A stretch of DNA of 64,000 nucleotides from Promethearchaeati archaeon. Its GTDB lineage: Archaea > Asgardarchaeota > Heimdallarchaeia > Heimdallarchaeales > Heimdallarchaeaceae. The stretch is taken from the NCBI GenBank assembly GCA_013166775.1, contig JABLTJ010000006.1:32001-96000 (forward strand), written 5' to 3'. The translations under genes were made by a program, and so were the position numbers. The notes under the pieces were generated by a model. That model had not been told where the DNA came from, made no database searches, and saw nothing but the letters and a program-made list of their open reading frames with translations. Positions 5,841-41,545 of this stretch are shown here, piece after piece. Each line of letters begins with the position of its first letter. Positions within the stretch are counted from its first letter, which is position 1.

Positions 5841-6418
5841 TATTCTTCACCTTTTTCTAATTCATTCAAAAGATCTAATGAAGAATCTCTAAATTCATCT
5901 AGAGTTCTATTATTAAGGATAATATAGTTTGAGAAGGCAATAGTCTCTCCTAATCCTAGTTTCAGTTCAGATTCATCTCTTTTCTTAAAATCCTCCTCTG
6001 TTTGTGGAGCGTCCTTTCTCCCCCTTAATCTCAATCTTTCATATCTCAAAGTGGGATCCACATGTATTGCTACTATAACAAATTCGTCATTAAGATGATT
6101 CTTAAAATGATCAACTTCAGCTTGACTTCTGATTCCATCAATAATTATTCGATGATTTTCCTCTTCTATCAATTTATCAGTTGCTTTGCAGGTTAGATGT
6201 GCGACTGCATCTTCACCCATTTTTTCTCTGACTTGAACCATTACTCTTTGAGTATTATTGGGAGTAGGTTCAAATCCTTCTTCAATAACCTTCGCTCGAA
6301 TTACATCTCCCATAATGACAGTTTTGTAGCCTTTTTGAGCAGCATACTGTGCAAATAAGCTTTTCCCAGAACCAGGCATACCTGTTACTCCAATCACTCT
6401 AGTAATTCGATTTGTCAT
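5840..6418 (-). CDS. UPF0200 P-loop nucleotide kinase (dephospho-CoA kinase-like)
   Basis: GVTGMPGSGKS, MGDVIR, IDGIRS, RGRKD, RDESEL; start moved to ATG 6418 because the longer ORF overlaps the divergent gene. Confidence 0.85.
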   Translation of the reverse strand: MTNRITRVIGVTGMPGSGKSLFAQYAAQKGYKTVIMGDVIRAKVIEEGFEPTPNNTQRVMVQVREKMGEDAVAHLTCKATDKLIEEENHRIIIDGIRSQAEVDHFKNHLNDEFVIVAIHVDPTLRYERLRLRGRKDAPQTEEDFKKRDESELKLGLGETIAFSNYIILNNRTLDEFRDSSLDLLNELEKGEE

Positions 6419-38268: not shown

Positions 38269-39120
38269 TCATTCAATTAACATTGTTAAATCGAAGTTTT
38301 TTACAGAATGAGTTAATGATCCTGAGGATATTAAATCTACACCTTCTAATGAGTACATATCTAGATTATTTAGATTGATATTCCCACTTAACTCAATTGA
38401 TATATTAGAATTGACTTCTCTTATTTTTGGGATGATAATTTTAGCTTGATCTGGAGTAAAATTATCAAGCATCACTATATCCGCACCAGCTTTAACTGCT
38501 TCTAAAGCCTCTTCCTCATTCTGAACCTCAACTTCTATTTTCTTACTGAAACTAGTTCTTTCCTTCGCTTTCTCTATTGCTTTTGTTATTGATTCAAACA
38601 TTCTAAGATGATTTTCTTTTAGTAAAATCATATCTGAAAGATTAAATCTATGAGTGTCCCCCCCACCTACAGTAACTGCAAATTTATCATATTTACTAAG
38701 CCCAGGAACAATCTTCCTTGTTGCACAAATTCTGATAGTTGAATTTACAGATTGAGCTTTTTCGAGCATAATTGCAGTTTGAGTAGCGATTCCTGACATT
38801 CTGCCAAGAAGATTCAGAGCTAAACGTTCTGCTTGAAGTAAAGAATGTATATTCCCCTTAACTGAAGCTATTTGAGTCTTCTTAGATACATGTTGTCCAT
38901 CTCCAACCGTTATTTCATACTCTGCTCCCATGAGCTCAAAAATCCTTTTCGCTATGAGAGTTCCTGCTATTACTCCCTCTTGTTTAGAATAAATTTTTCC
39001 TTTAACATTTTTCTGCGGCAGAAGAGCAGTTGTTATATCCCAATAAGAGATATCTTCAGAAAGCCAGTTTTTTATGTCCTCATCTAGTAATAGTTGTGGA
39101 ATCATGTTCAATTTCCCCAC
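38269..39120 (-). CDS. nadC: Quinolinate phosphoribosyltransferase
   Basis: ERLALN, SGIAT, TRK, HRFNLSD, KENH, EVEV, MLDN. Confidence 0.97.
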   Translation of the reverse strand: MGKLNMIPQLLLDEDIKNWLSEDISYWDITTALLPQKNVKGKIYSKQEGVIAGTLIAKRIFELMGAEYEITVGDGQHVSKKTQIASVKGNIHSLLQAERLALNLLGRMSGIATQTAIMLEKAQSVNSTIRICATRKIVPGLSKYDKFAVTVGGGDTHRFNLSDMILLKENHLRMFESITKAIEKAKERTSFSKKIEVEVQNEEEALEAVKAGADIVMLDNFTPDQAKIIIPKIREVNSNISIELSGNINLNNLDMYSLEGVDLISSGSLTHSVKNFDLTMLIE

Positions 39121-39123
39121 TTT

Positions 39124-40152
39124 TTAGTATTTTAGCATATTGTTTACAGCTTTGTAAGCTTTTAATCTAACTTCTTTATCTAATTCAATTATGTGTTCAG
39201 AAGTTGGATTTTCTATAGCTTTTAGTGTTGTGTAAAGGTCATTACTCTTCATACTTACACAGATCATGTGACTATCTTGAAAATTTAGGTGAGGATATTC
39301 AACTTTCATTCTATCTATGAATCCTTGCTCCGTAAGAAATAGAATCTTGTGGCCATTCTTCGATTCTTTAGCATATCTATGCATATCTCCAGTCCCCCCT
39401 ACTAAATCAACTCTACTAATAATTTCAGGTCTGCATTCAAGATGAGCAAAAGTTTTCACTTCTGAATCTTTGAAAATTTTATCAAACCTTCTTTCAGTAA
39501 AAGCATGATGAGTTCGGCAGAATCCCTTCTCCCATGTAATGATTTTCTTTCCAGTAATCTTAGCTAAGTTTACTCCCATGTTATGATCAGGAACAAAAAT
39601 TATTGTTTCATCTTCAAGTTGTTCAATAATTTTTTTTGCATTAGCAGAGGTGCAACAGATATCTGATTCTGCTTTAACTTCTGCAGTAGTATTAACATAA
39701 CAAACAACTGGAGCTCCTGGATATCGTTCTTTCAAAGCTTTAACATCTTCCCCTGTAATAGAATCTGCTAAAGTACAATCTCTACCTTTGAGAGGAACAT
39801 AAACAGTTTTTTCAGGATTAAGGATTTTAACTGTTTCAGCCATGAAATCAACACCACAGAACATGATTGTATCTTCTTCGATTTCTGTAGCTATTTTTGC
39901 TAATCCTAATGAATCACCCACTATATCAGCAATTCCAAAAATGATTTCTGGTGATTGATAAGAATGAGCTAAGATTTTAATTCCTTTCTCTTTCTTCAAC
40001 GTATTAATTCGTAGCGTGAAAGGTGCTAGTTGTTCACATACTTCCCTTGTCCAGCCCAGCTTACTTAGTTTAGAATAAAGACGCTCGATTTCATTATTCA
40101 GCTTTTGTTGATCCTGAGCTGGGATTTGTGGTGCGTCTTCTACTATAACCAT
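39124..40152 (-). CDS. nadA: Quinolinate synthase
   Basis: LAHSYQ, GDSL, FCGVDFMAE, YVNT, CTSANA, HLEC; three cluster Cys retained. Confidence 0.96.
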   Translation of the reverse strand: MVIVEDAPQIPAQDQQKLNNEIERLYSKLSKLGWTREVCEQLAPFTLRINTLKKEKGIKILAHSYQSPEIIFGIADIVGDSLGLAKIATEIEEDTIMFCGVDFMAETVKILNPEKTVYVPLKGRDCTLADSITGEDVKALKERYPGAPVVCYVNTTAEVKAESDICCTSANAKKIIEQLEDETIIFVPDHNMGVNLAKITGKKIITWEKGFCRTHHAFTERRFDKIFKDSEVKTFAHLECRPEIISRVDLVGGTGDMHRYAKESKNGHKILFLTEQGFIDRMKVEYPHLNFQDSHMICVSMKSNDLYTTLKAIENPTSEHIIELDKEVRLKAYKAVNNMLKY

Positions 40153-40354
40153 TACAATCGGGATGGTTTTTGTTGTGAAGTATTTAAAGAATGTTCGTTT
40201 AAGGTAAAAATTGAATGAAGATTAAATCAATATTTCTTTTAAGGCTCTGAAATGTGCGAATCCGATACTTACTATGAATAAATGAAGCAAATTTTGCCCA
40301 TATTTTCCTTCTAAATCTCCACATTTTCTCTTTAGAACTCCCCTAAGTGAATTT

Positions 40355-40373
40355 TATGTATTGACAATACATA
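40355..40373. promoter_or_regulatory. Perfect 19-bp palindrome, candidate operator between nadA and NADK-wHTH
   Basis: TATGTATTG-A-CAATACATA. Confidence 0.55.
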
Positions 40374-40489
40374 TTTTTAAAACCTAATGAAAAAATGATT
40401 TTTTTACTAAATTTTAAGCGAGAATTGGTACTCGCCAAATACTATTTAAATGAATTAACAGTAATATTTTTTTAGTAAAGAAACACAGA

Positions 40490-41545
40490 GTGGAAGAAAT
40501 GAAGATCGCTTTGTATGTAACTGAAGGTAAAAACTACGTTGAGTTTTCTGATACTATCAAAGAGATTATTCAAGAGTTAGCTCCCGAAACAGAAATAATA
40601 CCATTAAGAGATAAAGAGTTAAATCAGGAAAACTGGCAGAGTGAACTAAAAGATTTTTCACTTAATAATGCTGATTTAGTTATAACTGTTGGAGATGCAG
40701 GAACTTTTCTTCGAGCAATCTTTTTGAGTAGAAAGTCCATTCCTGTAGTAGCTGCTTCCTCTGAAAGGTTGAGTTTCTTTACAGAAATAGCTCCAAACAA
40801 TTTAAGAGAAAATCTTAACTTGATATTGAACAATAGATTCTTTATTGATGATTATAATAGAGTTGAAATTCAAGGAGTTTTCAATAAAATTCCAATACCT
40901 GCATTAAATGAAATTGCCATTTTTCCGAGAGATTCAGCGTTGCTCATGAATTACACTATTGTAGTGGATAACAATGTTCTCTACAGAGGACGAGCTGATG
41001 GGATTATTATTTCAACAGCTCTTGGAAGTACCGGATATGCTCTTTCATCCGGAGGTCCCATAGCTTTCGGTAATCCAAATATTTTAATCGCTGTTCCTGT
41101 TAATCCATTGAACAAAGAACATATCCCACTTGTGGTTCCTTTGGAATCTGAGATTAAAATTGTTAACATGAGATCAAGATCACCAATAGAAGCAGTCATT
41201 GATGGACAAATTCGATTGAAACTGGAAGAAGAAGTACTCATTAAGCAAGCAAGAACCGATGTGAAAATATTAAGGTTTCAATCAAGAAAAAATATTCTAG
41301 CAAAACTAAGAAATAGATTAGTTGAACTAGATTTGCGCCATTTAGAAGGGGTACCTCCTTCTGCAAAATATATTTTTAAACTGCTATTGACAGAAGGAGA
41401 AATGACACAAAAAGAACTTATAGAAAGTACGGGTTTGCCAAATAGAACTGTGAGAAACGCTTTGAATATCTTAAAAGAGAAGGGAGTTATTAGTCAAAGA
41501 CCACATTTAAGAGATGCGAGACAATCGATTTATTTCGCTTCATAA
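40490..41545 (+). CDS. NAD kinase-fold protein fused to a C-terminal MarR-like winged HTH (probable regulator)
   Basis: ALNE, ADG..ST..GSTGY.LSSGGP, IDGQ retained; GGDGT changed to GDAGT; C-terminal PPSAK...TQKEL..TGL..RTVR.AL..L....I...DARQ. Confidence 0.85.
   Translation: MEEMKIALYVTEGKNYVEFSDTIKEIIQELAPETEIIPLRDKELNQENWQSELKDFSLNNADLVITVGDAGTFLRAIFLSRKSIPVVAASSERLSFFTEIAPNNLRENLNLILNNRFFIDDYNRVEIQGVFNKIPIPALNEIAIFPRDSALLMNYTIVVDNNVLYRGRADGIIISTALGSTGYALSSGGPIAFGNPNILIAVPVNPLNKEHIPLVVPLESEIKIVNMRSRSPIEAVIDGQIRLKLEEEVLIKQARTDVKILRFQSRKNILAKLRNRLVELDLRHLEGVPPSAKYIFKLLLTEGEMTQKELIESTGLPNRTVRNALNILKEKGVISQRPHLRDARQSIYFAS

What the first reader, a model, noticed from the sequence alone, without database searches (positions are those of the whole stretch)
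38269..41545. NAD kinase apparently repurposed as an NAD-sensing regulator of nadA-nadC
Seen: the NADK-fold gene is divergent from nadA-nadC. It keeps the NAD-binding motifs (NE; DG..ST..GSTGY.LSSGGP), but the GGDGT motif reads GDAGT (40691-40705), so the conserved Asp position is Ala. It ends in a MarR-like wHTH. The shared intergenic region holds a perfect palindrome TATGTATTG-A-CAATACATA (40355-40373) and GCGAG-N8-CTCGC (40418-40435) next to a TATTTAAA box. Established: the GGDG Asp is essential for NADK catalysis, and known NAD regulators (NadR, NrtR, NiaR, NadQ) use other sensor folds. Inference: a distinct NAD(P)-responsive transcription factor built from a kinase fold.
Basis: partly seen in the sequence, partly recalled or inferred. 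Interest (0 to 1): 0.75.

Follow-up and report, generated by a model that had tools for sequence, protein, structure and literature searches.

The report
Disabled NAD kinase turned NAD-gene regulator

Summary
Gene 40490-41545 (+) has an NAD-kinase fold plus a C-terminal winged helix, and lies divergent from nadA-nadC. GGDGT reads GDAGT; no ortholog in the Heimdall clade has Asp at the catalytic position. A second N-domain motif is also degenerate, while the NAD-site motifs and the recognition helix are invariant. The genome also has a canonical GGDGT NAD kinase.

Linkage to NAD genes holds across lineages: nadA in Heimdallarchaeaceae and Thorarchaeota, pncA/pncB/nadE in others. So the reading "NAD(P)-sensing transcription factor" is well supported, though not proven.

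The operator assignment changes. A 13-bp palindrome, rGCAA-N3-TTGCy (window 40286-40298), lies 131-134 nt from the nadA start in 20 of 23 related intergenic regions. It is absent from 33 nadA upstream regions in families without the gene. It stays with nadA when the regulator has moved, and recurs beside NAD genes in Thorarchaeota.

However, it belongs to a family-wide motif (TAYGTAT-N5-ATAYRTA) that also precedes pgk, GAPDH and a small wHTH gene, and in fewer genomes FBPase and a hydrogenase. Its binder is unresolved. GCGAG-N8-CTCGC is not conserved.

This scan has reported the same protein family and the 13-bp palindrome in at least 13 other genomes. The second regulon appears to be new to the scan.

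The parts
38269..39120 (-). nadC (quinolinate phosphoribosyltransferase), second gene of the target operon
   Evidence: TIGR00078 316 bits against a cut-off of 198; QRPTase_N and QRPTase_C
39124..40152 (-). nadA (quinolinate synthase), first gene of the target operon
   Evidence: PF02445 321 bits; TIGR00550 285 bits against a cut-off of 263
40181..40189 (-). TATA-like box of nadA (TATTTAAAG on the + strand), about 33 nt from the nadA ATG
   Evidence: Conserved in at least 80% of 19 aligned intergenic regions; sequence. The promoter role is inferred.
40286..40298 (.). 13-bp palindrome AGCAA-ATT-TTGCC, the proposed operator of the NADK-wHTH regulator
   Evidence: Present in 20 of 23 family-f1 nadA upstream regions, against 0 of 24 (f5) and 0 of 9 (f4) in families lacking the regulator. 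The distance to nadA is fixed at 131-134 nt and the spacer varies freely. It stays with nadA when the regulator has moved. It recurs in Thorarchaeota nadA regions and before pncB in another lineage.
40355..40373 (.). 19-bp palindrome TATGTATTG-A-CAATACATA, a site of a separate family-wide motif TAYGTAT-N5-ATAYRTA
   Evidence: Perfect 9+1+9. Conserved in the intergenic alignment. The same motif sits upstream of pgk, GAPDH, a small wHTH gene and, in fewer genomes, a hydrogenase and FBPase. Enriched only in family f1: 105 strand-hits against 19 control.
40418..40435 (.). GCGAG-N8-CTCGC inverted repeat; not conserved and probably without function
   Evidence: Lies in a stretch that is missing from all other aligned intergenic regions
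40443..40450 (+). TATA-like box of the regulator gene
   Evidence: Aligns with the conserved ATAAATATAAATA block about 35-45 nt before the start codons. The promoter role is inferred.
40490..41545 (+). NADK-fold / wHTH regulator (351 aa from GTG 40490; probably 348 aa from ATG 40499). NADK body is about aa 1-265, linker helix 269-285, wHTH 287-351.
   Evidence: Pfam domains. AF2 model pLDDT 86.5; best PDB matches are NAD kinases with TM about 0.8. About 75-80 clusters at 50% identity reach into the wHTH.
40691..40705 (+). Degenerate GGDGT motif (G68 D69 A70 G71 T72); the catalytic Asp position is Ala
   Evidence: The third position is T, A or S in all 37 Heimdall-clade sequences, and 8 have no Asp in the motif at all. 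The role of the Asp is from PMC8553519.
40751..40780 (+). Second degenerate N-domain motif: AASSERLSFF where canonical NADKs have GINxGxLGFL
   Evidence: Alignments to 2AN1 and 1SUW; also degenerate in distant fused members
40997..41059 (+). Conserved region II of the NAD site (D170...G189-P190), intact
   Evidence: D170 G171 T176 G179 S180 Y183 S186 G189 P190 are invariant in 40 sequences of both clades
41348..41542 (+). C-terminal winged helix-turn-helix
   Evidence: HTH_24 is above its cut-off. K297, L299, L316, R319, T320, R322, D342 and R344 are invariant across both clades.

Best explanation
The gene encodes a transcription factor made from a duplicated NAD kinase.

- The kinase body has lost its phosphoryl-transfer site but keeps the NAD(P)-binding pocket, which in NAD kinases forms at the dimer interface. 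It therefore serves as a pyridine-nucleotide sensor.
- The C-terminal winged helices of a dimer, or a dimer of dimers, bind the 13-bp palindrome rGCAA-N3-TTGCy (window 40286-40298) upstream of nadA-nadC.
- In this way de novo NAD synthesis is tuned to the NAD(P) pool.

Shown: the fold, motif loss and retention, the paralogue, synteny, and how the palindrome is distributed.

Inferred: DNA binding, the identity of the ligand, and the direction of control. My guess is that the ligand-bound form lowers nadA-nadC transcription.

The 19-bp palindrome in the same spacer is a second input from a separate regulon whose binder is unknown.
For: 1. Fold. The AF2 model has pLDDT 86.5, and the top PDB matches are all NAD kinases with TM about 0.8.
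2. Catalytic site. The catalytic Asp position is T, A or S in all 37 Heimdall-clade sequences, and 8 have no Asp in the motif. GINxGxLGFL reads AASSERLSFF. The Asp is the catalytic base, and GGDGT is found in 124 of 127 archaeal NADKs (PMC8553519). No NCBIfam NADK model reaches its cut-off; the best scores 149 bits against 326.
3. Retained parts. The NE motif, region II and the recognition helix RTVR are invariant across two clades that share only 30-40% identity.
4. Paralogue. A canonical 284-aa NADK with GGDGT is in the same genome. Nearly all related genomes have one too, as do a Thorarchaeota genome and a Nitrososphaerales genome.
5. Synteny. The gene is next to nadA in 23 of 26 species genomes of the family, and the other flanking genes differ. 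Distant members sit beside nadA (Thorarchaeota and others) or beside pncA, pncB and nadE.
6. Palindrome. It is found in 20 of 23 nadA upstream regions where the regulator is present, against 0 of 33 where it is absent. Its distance to nadA is fixed and its spacer varies. It stays with nadA in G016 and G005, where the regulator has moved. GGCAACGCTTGCC and GGCAACATTTGCC lie in two Thorarchaeota nadA spacers, and GGCAAATTTTGCA lies before pncB in another lineage.
7. Homodimer model. Score 0.45, best of 3 controls 0.00. That mark was reached by 20 of 30 proteins solved as pairs of one chain and by 1 of 23 solved as single chains. The runs agree in at least 66% of contacts and partner pLDDT is at least 81. 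The interface is residues 159-220, that is region II. NADK dimers have been solved, so the pass may be from memory and shows likeness only.
Against: - There is no experimental evidence of DNA binding, ligand binding or lack of kinase activity.
- D69, next to the lost Asp position, could in principle substitute in most orthologues.
- In many distant members the Asp is kept while the glycines are lost, so loss of catalysis is not uniform across the family.
- The palindrome lies about 100 bp upstream of the nadA TATA-like box. That is neither a classic archaeal repressor position nor a classic activator position, unless a distal promoter is used.
- Marine Thaumarchaeota-type members are not next to NAD genes.
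- Other NAD genes of this genome (nadE and NMNAT candidates) carry neither motif nearby.
- Two loci of the distant clade (L013, L157) show no clean palindrome.
Confidence: 0.75

Rival explanations
1. One reading: the NADK-wHTH protein binds the 19-bp palindrome TAYGTAT-N5-ATAYRTA. It would then be a Rex-like global NAD(P)(H) sensor controlling nadA-nadC together with pgk, GAPDH, FBPase, a hydrogenase and a small wHTH gene.
For: - The motif lies in the regulator's own upstream region in about 14-17 of 23 genomes.
- It is enriched only in the family that carries the regulator: 105 strand-hits against 19 control in f1, but 24 against 19 elsewhere.
- The targets are NAD(P)-linked or redox enzymes.
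- A tetramer could in principle bridge two different sites.
Against: - The motif is absent beside the regulator in the distant clade, although the wHTH is highly conserved there.
- It is absent from the nadA-regulator spacer in genus g5, although pgk and GAPDH of g5 carry it.
- After rearrangement it is found neither at nadA nor at the regulator.
- One wHTH type seldom reads two unrelated palindromes, and the 13-bp one tracks the protein family.
- A small wHTH paralogue has the motif in its own upstream region in at least 16 genomes.
Confidence: 0.15
2. A bifunctional enzyme-regulator like RbkR or NadR: the protein is still an NAD kinase, with D69 or substrate-assisted catalysis standing in for the lost Asp, and it also regulates transcription.
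For: - The NAD site is fully conserved.
- Most orthologues have an Asp one position earlier in the motif.
- Distant members often keep the Asp.
- RbkR sets a precedent (PMC5397151).
Against: - Eight orthologues have no Asp in the motif.
- Two N-domain motifs are degenerate.
- A canonical paralogue is present in the same genomes.
- In RbkR, by contrast, the fusion is the only RibK in 96 of 119 genomes.
Confidence: 0.08
3. Not a transcription factor: the winged helix serves protein-protein contacts or binds RNA, and the linkage to NAD genes only reflects shared metabolism.
For: Winged helices have non-DNA roles in some proteins, and no binding data exist here.
Against: - The recognition helix and wing are invariant.
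- The palindrome co-occurs with the gene and stays at the target gene.
- The arrangement is divergent, with shared regulatory spacers, in several phyla.
Confidence: 0.03

Closest known systems
NrtR, the Nudix-related regulator of bacterial NAD metabolism (Rodionov et al. 2008, PMC2330246)
   Same: An enzyme-derived sensor with a perturbed catalytic signature and no expected activity, fused to a C-terminal wHTH. It sits beside NAD synthesis and salvage genes, whose upstream regions carry palindromic sites. The family was discovered by comparative genomics.
   Different: The sensor fold is Nudix and the effector is ADP-ribose; the family is bacterial. Here the sensor is an NAD-kinase fold, the ligand is unknown, and the hosts are archaea. 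The sequences are not related.
RbkR, the archaeal riboflavin kinase/regulator (Rodionova et al. 2017, PMC5397151)
   Same: An archaeal cofactor-pathway regulator built from a kinase of that pathway plus a MarR-like wHTH; the DNA sites are palindromes.
   Different: RbkR keeps its kinase activity and is usually the only RibK. Its wHTH is N-terminal and its kinase fold is different. Here the kinase site is degenerate and a canonical paralogue exists.
NAD kinase NadK/PpnK (EC 2.7.1.23; for example 1SUW, 1U0T, 7QVS)
   Same: The same two-domain fold, the NE/D motif and region II, and a predicted dimer through region II.
   Different: The catalytic Asp of GGDG and the GINxGxLGFL motif are lost, a wHTH of about 85 aa is added, and scores fall below every NCBIfam cut-off.
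NadR, NiaR and NadQ (bacterial NAD regulators)
   Same: The role: feedback control of nadA/nadB/nadC and salvage genes by NAD-related ligands. NadR also fuses a DNA-binding domain to NAD enzymes.
   Different: Unrelated folds, and bacterial only.
TrmBL1/Tgr and the Thermococcales glycolytic motif TATCAC-N5-GTGATA (PMC4706686). Relevant to the 19-bp palindrome only.
   Same: A palindrome with an N5 spacer in front of gapdh, pgk, fbp and por-type genes. Sites lie either upstream of the TATA box (here at GAPDH) or downstream of it (here at pgk), as in dual activator/repressor control.
   Different: The half-sites differ. No TrmB sugar-binding domain was found in this genome. The binder is unknown.

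Membership tests
NAD kinase (NadK/PpnK, EC 2.7.1.23) | Two-domain NADK fold | tested here: met
   Foldseek top hits are all NADKs, E about 1e-22, TM 0.75-0.85; Pfam N and C domains match
NAD kinase (NadK/PpnK, EC 2.7.1.23) | GGDG motif with the catalytic Asp | tested here: not met
   GDAGT here; the third position is T, A or S in all 37 clade members.
NAD kinase (NadK/PpnK, EC 2.7.1.23) | NE/D motif and conserved region II (NAD site) | tested here: met
   N140, D170, G171, T176, G179, S180, Y183, S186, G189 and P190 are invariant
NAD kinase (NadK/PpnK, EC 2.7.1.23) | Score above a curated equivalog cut-off | tested here: not met
   The best NCBIfam score is 148.7 bits against a cut-off of 326
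NAD kinase (NadK/PpnK, EC 2.7.1.23) | Phosphorylates NAD | not testable with these tools
   Needs an enzyme assay
NADK-fold/wHTH regulators of NAD genes (unnamed family; reported earlier by this scan) | NADK body with a remodelled GGDG motif plus a C-terminal wHTH (PPSAK...RTVR...LRDARQ) | tested here: met
NADK-fold/wHTH regulators of NAD genes (unnamed family; reported earlier by this scan) | Gene adjacent to NAD synthesis or salvage genes | tested here: met
NADK-fold/wHTH regulators of NAD genes (unnamed family; reported earlier by this scan) | 13-bp palindrome rGCAA-N3-TTGCy at the target genes | tested here: met
   Window 40286-40298
NADK-fold/wHTH regulators of NAD genes (unnamed family; reported earlier by this scan) | Sequence-specific DNA binding modulated by a pyridine nucleotide | not testable with these tools
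   Needs EMSA or ITC
NrtR | [quoted passage not shown] | tested here: not met
   No Nudix match; the domains are those of an NADK
RbkR | CTP-dependent riboflavin kinase domain with an N-terminal wHTH | tested here: not met
   The domains are NADK plus a C-terminal wHTH
MarR/TrmB-type winged helix | wHTH profile match above cut-off | tested here: met
   HTH_24 scores 25.9 against 21.9. MarR_2 (25.3 against 27) and TrmB (23.3 against 25.6) fall just below. The model shows three helices and a beta wing at 290-350.

The most novel reading that the evidence does not exclude
The protein would be the first pyridine-nucleotide-sensing transcription factor of Archaea. As a tetramer it would engage both conserved palindromes of the spacer, or share the 19-bp motif with its small wHTH paralogue. 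That would couple NAD synthesis to a Rex-like carbon and redox regulon (GAPDH, pgk, FBPase, NiFe-hydrogenase, POR) in the archaeal family often placed closest to eukaryotes.
Probability: 0.15. Interest if true: 0.85.

Novelty: new variant of a known kind. Interest (0 to 1): 0.7.

Why it matters
- None of my three literature searches found a described regulator of NAD metabolism in Archaea, nor any use of the NAD-kinase fold as a sensor domain.
- The family is sizeable: about 75-80 clusters at 50% identity, spanning Asgard groups, Nitrososphaerota and others. Public records mostly name it "NAD(+)/NADH kinase", so metabolic reconstructions may count a kinase that is really a regulator.
- It is a clean natural case of an enzyme paralogue becoming a pseudoenzyme sensor, parallel to bacterial NrtR.
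- The prediction is directly testable: a 13-bp site, a purifiable protein of about 350 aa, and a short list of ligands.
- The second motif found here is a first lead into control of central carbon and redox genes in Heimdallarchaeaceae, organisms with no genetic system.

Tried and rejected
- **Locus search swamped.** The search for related loci with an alignment of distant members was swamped by canonical NADKs. Only two useful loci came back, L163 and L164.
- **Genome not held.** The genome behind locus L012 is not held, so I could not test whether that Thaumarchaeota-type member is the only NADK there. A Nitrososphaerales genome did show a separate GGDG protein.
- **19-bp motif in the distant clade.** I looked for it in loci L012-L014 and in L009 and found none.
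- **13-bp palindrome elsewhere in this genome.** There are 11 intergenic sites, none beside a recognisable NAD gene. nadE and the NMNAT candidates lie on other contigs or far from any site.
- **A TrmB-type regulator as binder of the 19-bp motif.** No TrmB C-terminal domain is present. Two proteins have strong TrmB wHTH matches, but neither of their contigs (C1, C75) has a strict motif hit.
- **Small wHTH autoregulation.** A site lies in its upstream region in genera g1 and g4. It is degenerate in g5 and was not found in g2 and g3, so the binder is not settled.
- **First step of the pathway.** No aspartate dehydrogenase was found, and the best nadB-like match is below its cut-off. The first step of de novo synthesis in this 88.7%-complete genome stays open.
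- **GCGAG-N8-CTCGC as operator.** Rejected, because it is not conserved.
Full report
**What is there.** The window comes from a Heimdallarchaeaceae (Asgard) genome: the closest homologues carry that name in public records. It lies on contig C65 of a 3.85-Mb assembly that is 88.7% complete.
- nadC (38269-39120, -) and nadA (39124-40152, -) are unambiguous.
- The divergent ORF 40490-41545 (+) matches both Pfam NAD-kinase domains and a C-terminal winged helix. HTH_24 is above its cut-off; MarR_2 and TrmB fall just below.
- Every NCBIfam NAD-kinase model scores far below its cut-off; the best is 149 bits against 326.
- Homologues are 348 aa, so the true start is probably ATG 40499.

**The protein.**
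- An AlphaFold model built on 40 sequences has mean pLDDT 86.5. It shows the NADK body (about 1-265), a poorly placed linker helix (269-285) and a three-helix winged helix (290-350). Its best PDB matches are all NAD kinases, with TM about 0.8 normalised to the target.
- GGDGT reads G68-D69-A70-G71-T72. In all 37 sequences of the Heimdall clade the catalytic Asp position is T, A or S. Eight of them (GGTGT, GSTGT, GHTGT) have no Asp in the motif at all.
- The next N-domain motif, GINxGxLGFL in solved kinases, reads AASSERLSFF.
- The Asp is the catalytic base in LmNADK1. [quoted passage not shown] - Across two clades that share only 30-40% identity, the NE motif, region II (D170...P190) and the winged-helix residues K297, L299, L316, R319, T320, R322, D342 and R344 are invariant. 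Of GGDG only G68 is invariant.
- In 28 more distant fused representatives only 2 keep GGDG. Many keep the Asp but lose the glycines. The phosphoryl-donor site is therefore remodelled family-wide, while loss of the Asp is specific to the Heimdall clade.
- A homodimer model passed its controls: score 0.45, best of 3 controls 0.00. That mark was reached by 20 of 30 proteins solved as pairs of one chain and by 1 of 23 solved as single chains. The runs agree in at least 66% of contacts and partner pLDDT is at least 81. The interface is region II. NADK dimers have been solved, so this shows likeness rather than independent proof.

The genome holds four NADK-fold genes:
- a canonical 284-aa kinase with GGDGT on contig C51;
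- two proteins of 371-373 aa of another NADK-like type, both with GGDGT;
- the fusion itself.

Full-length orthologues of the fusion occur in 26 of 31 genomes of this family. The five without one are 72-88% complete. None occurs in 52 genomes of six sister families. Canonical-size NADK matches are found in nearly all of these genomes. A Thorarchaeota genome and a Nitrososphaerales genome that carry distant fusions also have a separate GGDG protein.

**Linkage to NAD genes.**
- In 23 of 26 species genomes of the family the fusion lies next to nadA, in one of them with an extra gene in between. The outer flanks differ between loci.
- Distant members (30-41% identity) lie as follows:
  - divergent from nadA in two Thorarchaeota loci and one further contig;
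  - beside NUDIX, pncB, pncA, nadE and a short NADK;
  - before pncB and pncA;
  - divergent from pncA.
- One marine Thaumarchaeota-type member has no NAD neighbour. A Nitrososphaerales member faces an MFS transporter.
- At 50% clustering, about 75-80 clusters reach into the winged helix.

**The operators.** Aligning 19 nadA-regulator spacers shows four conserved blocks:
- a TATA-like box about 33 nt from nadA;
- AAGCAA-N3-TTGCCTAT;
- a TATA-like box before the regulator.

The GCGAG repeat falls in a stretch unique to this genome.

The first palindrome, rGCAA-N3-TTGCy (window 40286-40298), behaves like the operator of this protein:
- It lies 131-134 nt from the nadA ATG in three genera. Its spacer varies freely, and its distance to the regulator start varies from 135 to 390 nt.
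- It occurs in 20 of 23 nadA upstream regions of this family, against 0 of 24 and 0 of 9 in two sister families that lack the fusion.
- In G016 and G005, where the regulator gene has moved away, it stays 135 and 146 nt upstream of nadA and is absent from the regulator's new upstream region.
- Two Thorarchaeota nadA spacers carry GGCAACGCTTGCC and GGCAACATTTGCC, each with a weaker second copy. Another lineage has GGCAAATTTTGCA and GGCAAATTGCC between the regulator and pncB.

I derived this palindrome before reading earlier notes of the scan. Those notes report the same 13-bp palindrome for the same family in at least 13 other genomes.

- Its strict consensus has only four sites in this genome, all intergenic:
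  - the nadA spacer;
  - 25 nt before pgk;
  - about 50 nt before GAPDH;
  - between a 90-aa wHTH gene and a small membrane-protein gene that is followed by an NADK-like 373-aa gene.
- Across 83 genomes of the class the motif is enriched only in this family: 105 strand-hits against 19 for the reversed control. Elsewhere the count is 24 against 19.
- The site before pgk is conserved at -42 to -46 in 14 genomes and at -62 in one more, across four genera in all. The site before GAPDH is conserved in four genera.
- Further conserved sites lie between the small wHTH gene and its divergent neighbour in at least 16 genomes, and between a NiFe-hydrogenase small-subunit-like gene and a ferredoxin-domain gene in 6 genomes. 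Single cases precede class V FBPase and a POR subunit.
- At GAPDH the site sits 12 nt upstream of a TATA-like box. At pgk it sits about 25 nt downstream of one. This geometry recalls TrmBL1 and its TGM motif (PMC4706686).
- The motif is absent beside the fusion in the distant clade and in genus g5.
- The small wHTH protein is a paralogue (about 40% identity) of the fusion's winged helix. Orthologues of at least 78% identity occur throughout this family. However, its own site is not found in every genus.
- I therefore treat the 19-bp palindrome as a functional site of a separate carbon and redox regulon. Its binder is unresolved: the small wHTH protein is the leading candidate, the fusion itself is a minority possibility, and another factor cannot be excluded. 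No TrmB sugar-binding domain was found.

**Mechanism.** The best-supported reading is a pseudo-kinase sensor.
- A dimer formed through region II binds a pyridine nucleotide in the retained pocket.
- That sets the geometry of the two winged helices on the 13-bp palindrome.
- nadA-nadC transcription changes as a result.

The direction is not settled. The site is about 100 bp upstream of the nadA TATA-like box here. A TATA-like run (AAATAAATAGG in relatives) directly precedes the palindrome in the nadA direction and could be a distal promoter, which would put the site in a repressor position. In Thorarchaeota the sites lie just upstream of both TATA-like boxes, which would suit either an activator or BRE occlusion. 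These promoter readings are inference.

**Comparison and novelty.** The design is that of NrtR (a degenerate enzyme sensor plus a C-terminal wHTH for NAD genes) and of RbkR (an archaeal kinase plus wHTH for a cofactor pathway). The sensor fold, the host domain and the DNA motif all differ. Three literature searches found no description of an NADK-wHTH regulator. It fails the defining catalytic-motif test for an NAD kinase, although public records name it one. I rate it a new variant of a known kind.

Noticed in passing
window 40355-40373; G000:C94:65500-65518; G000:C97:176865-176883; G000:C27:16691-16709: A family-wide motif, TAYGTAT-N5-ATAYRTA, sits upstream of pgk, GAPDH, a small wHTH gene and its divergent neighbour, a NiFe-hydrogenase-like pair, FBPase (one genome) and POR (one genome). 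It is enriched only in Heimdallarchaeaceae (105 strand-hits against 19 control). This is a candidate carbon and redox regulon whose binder is unknown.
   Followed up: partly
G000:C27:16252-16521 (-): A 90-aa stand-alone wHTH protein, 78-100% identical across the family, that is a paralogue of the fusion's winged helix. The 19-bp motif lies 140-170 nt upstream of it in at least 16 genomes. A 103-aa ORF and a Ras-like GTPase follow on the same strand.
   Followed up: partly
G000:C94:64219-65475 and G000:C7:34658-35902: Many genomes of the family have two phosphoglycerate kinase paralogues (57% identity). Only one of them carries the 19-bp site, and a subclade of the genus with a single pgk lacks the site.
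   Followed up: no
G000:C8:6070-6080 and 6330-6340: Two rGCAA-N3-TTGCy palindromes lie 260 bp apart in one spacer. Downstream are an unknown 337-aa gene and a 363-aa protein with a C-terminal DUF7343/wHTH domain. This may be another sensor-wHTH fusion with a related site.
   Followed up: no
L003 805-1920 and L004 802-1923 (G000 contigs C51 and C27): Two NADK-like proteins of 371-373 aa with an intact GGDGT. One lies downstream of the DUF4199-like membrane-protein gene that faces the small wHTH gene across a 19-bp site.
   Followed up: no
L032 (G016:C86) and L036 (G003:C152), upstream of the regulator: In two genomes where the regulator is no longer next to nadA, its upstream region holds similar sequence (GTGTGTTGAGC.GTGTG.GC.GG) that reads like the end of a mobile element. 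An insertion probably split the locus.
   Followed up: no
L290 (G003:C345), last 16 bases: The contig ends in AGATCGGAAGAGCGTC, an Illumina adapter-like string. Its nadA spacer resembles genus g1 rather than g2, so it is probably an assembly or binning artefact. I did not count it as evidence.
   Followed up: no
whole genome G000: No aspartate dehydrogenase (PF01958) was found, and the best nadB-like match (C102:92806-94383, 391 bits) is below the cut-off of 453 bits. The source of iminoaspartate for NadA is therefore unclear. A relative (L009) has an Asp_DH gene three genes beyond nadC (about 1.5 kb away).
   Followed up: partly
L164 1835-3229 (-): In a Nitrososphaerales genome the fusion is divergent from an MFS (Sugar_tr) transporter. 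This is the same superfamily as the niacin transporter NiaP (from memory), so it could be a salvage-uptake target.
   Followed up: no
L014 5811-6000: The spacer upstream of a distant regulator contains a tRNA-like sequence on the opposite strand. I read this by eye and did not run a tRNA finder.
   Followed up: no
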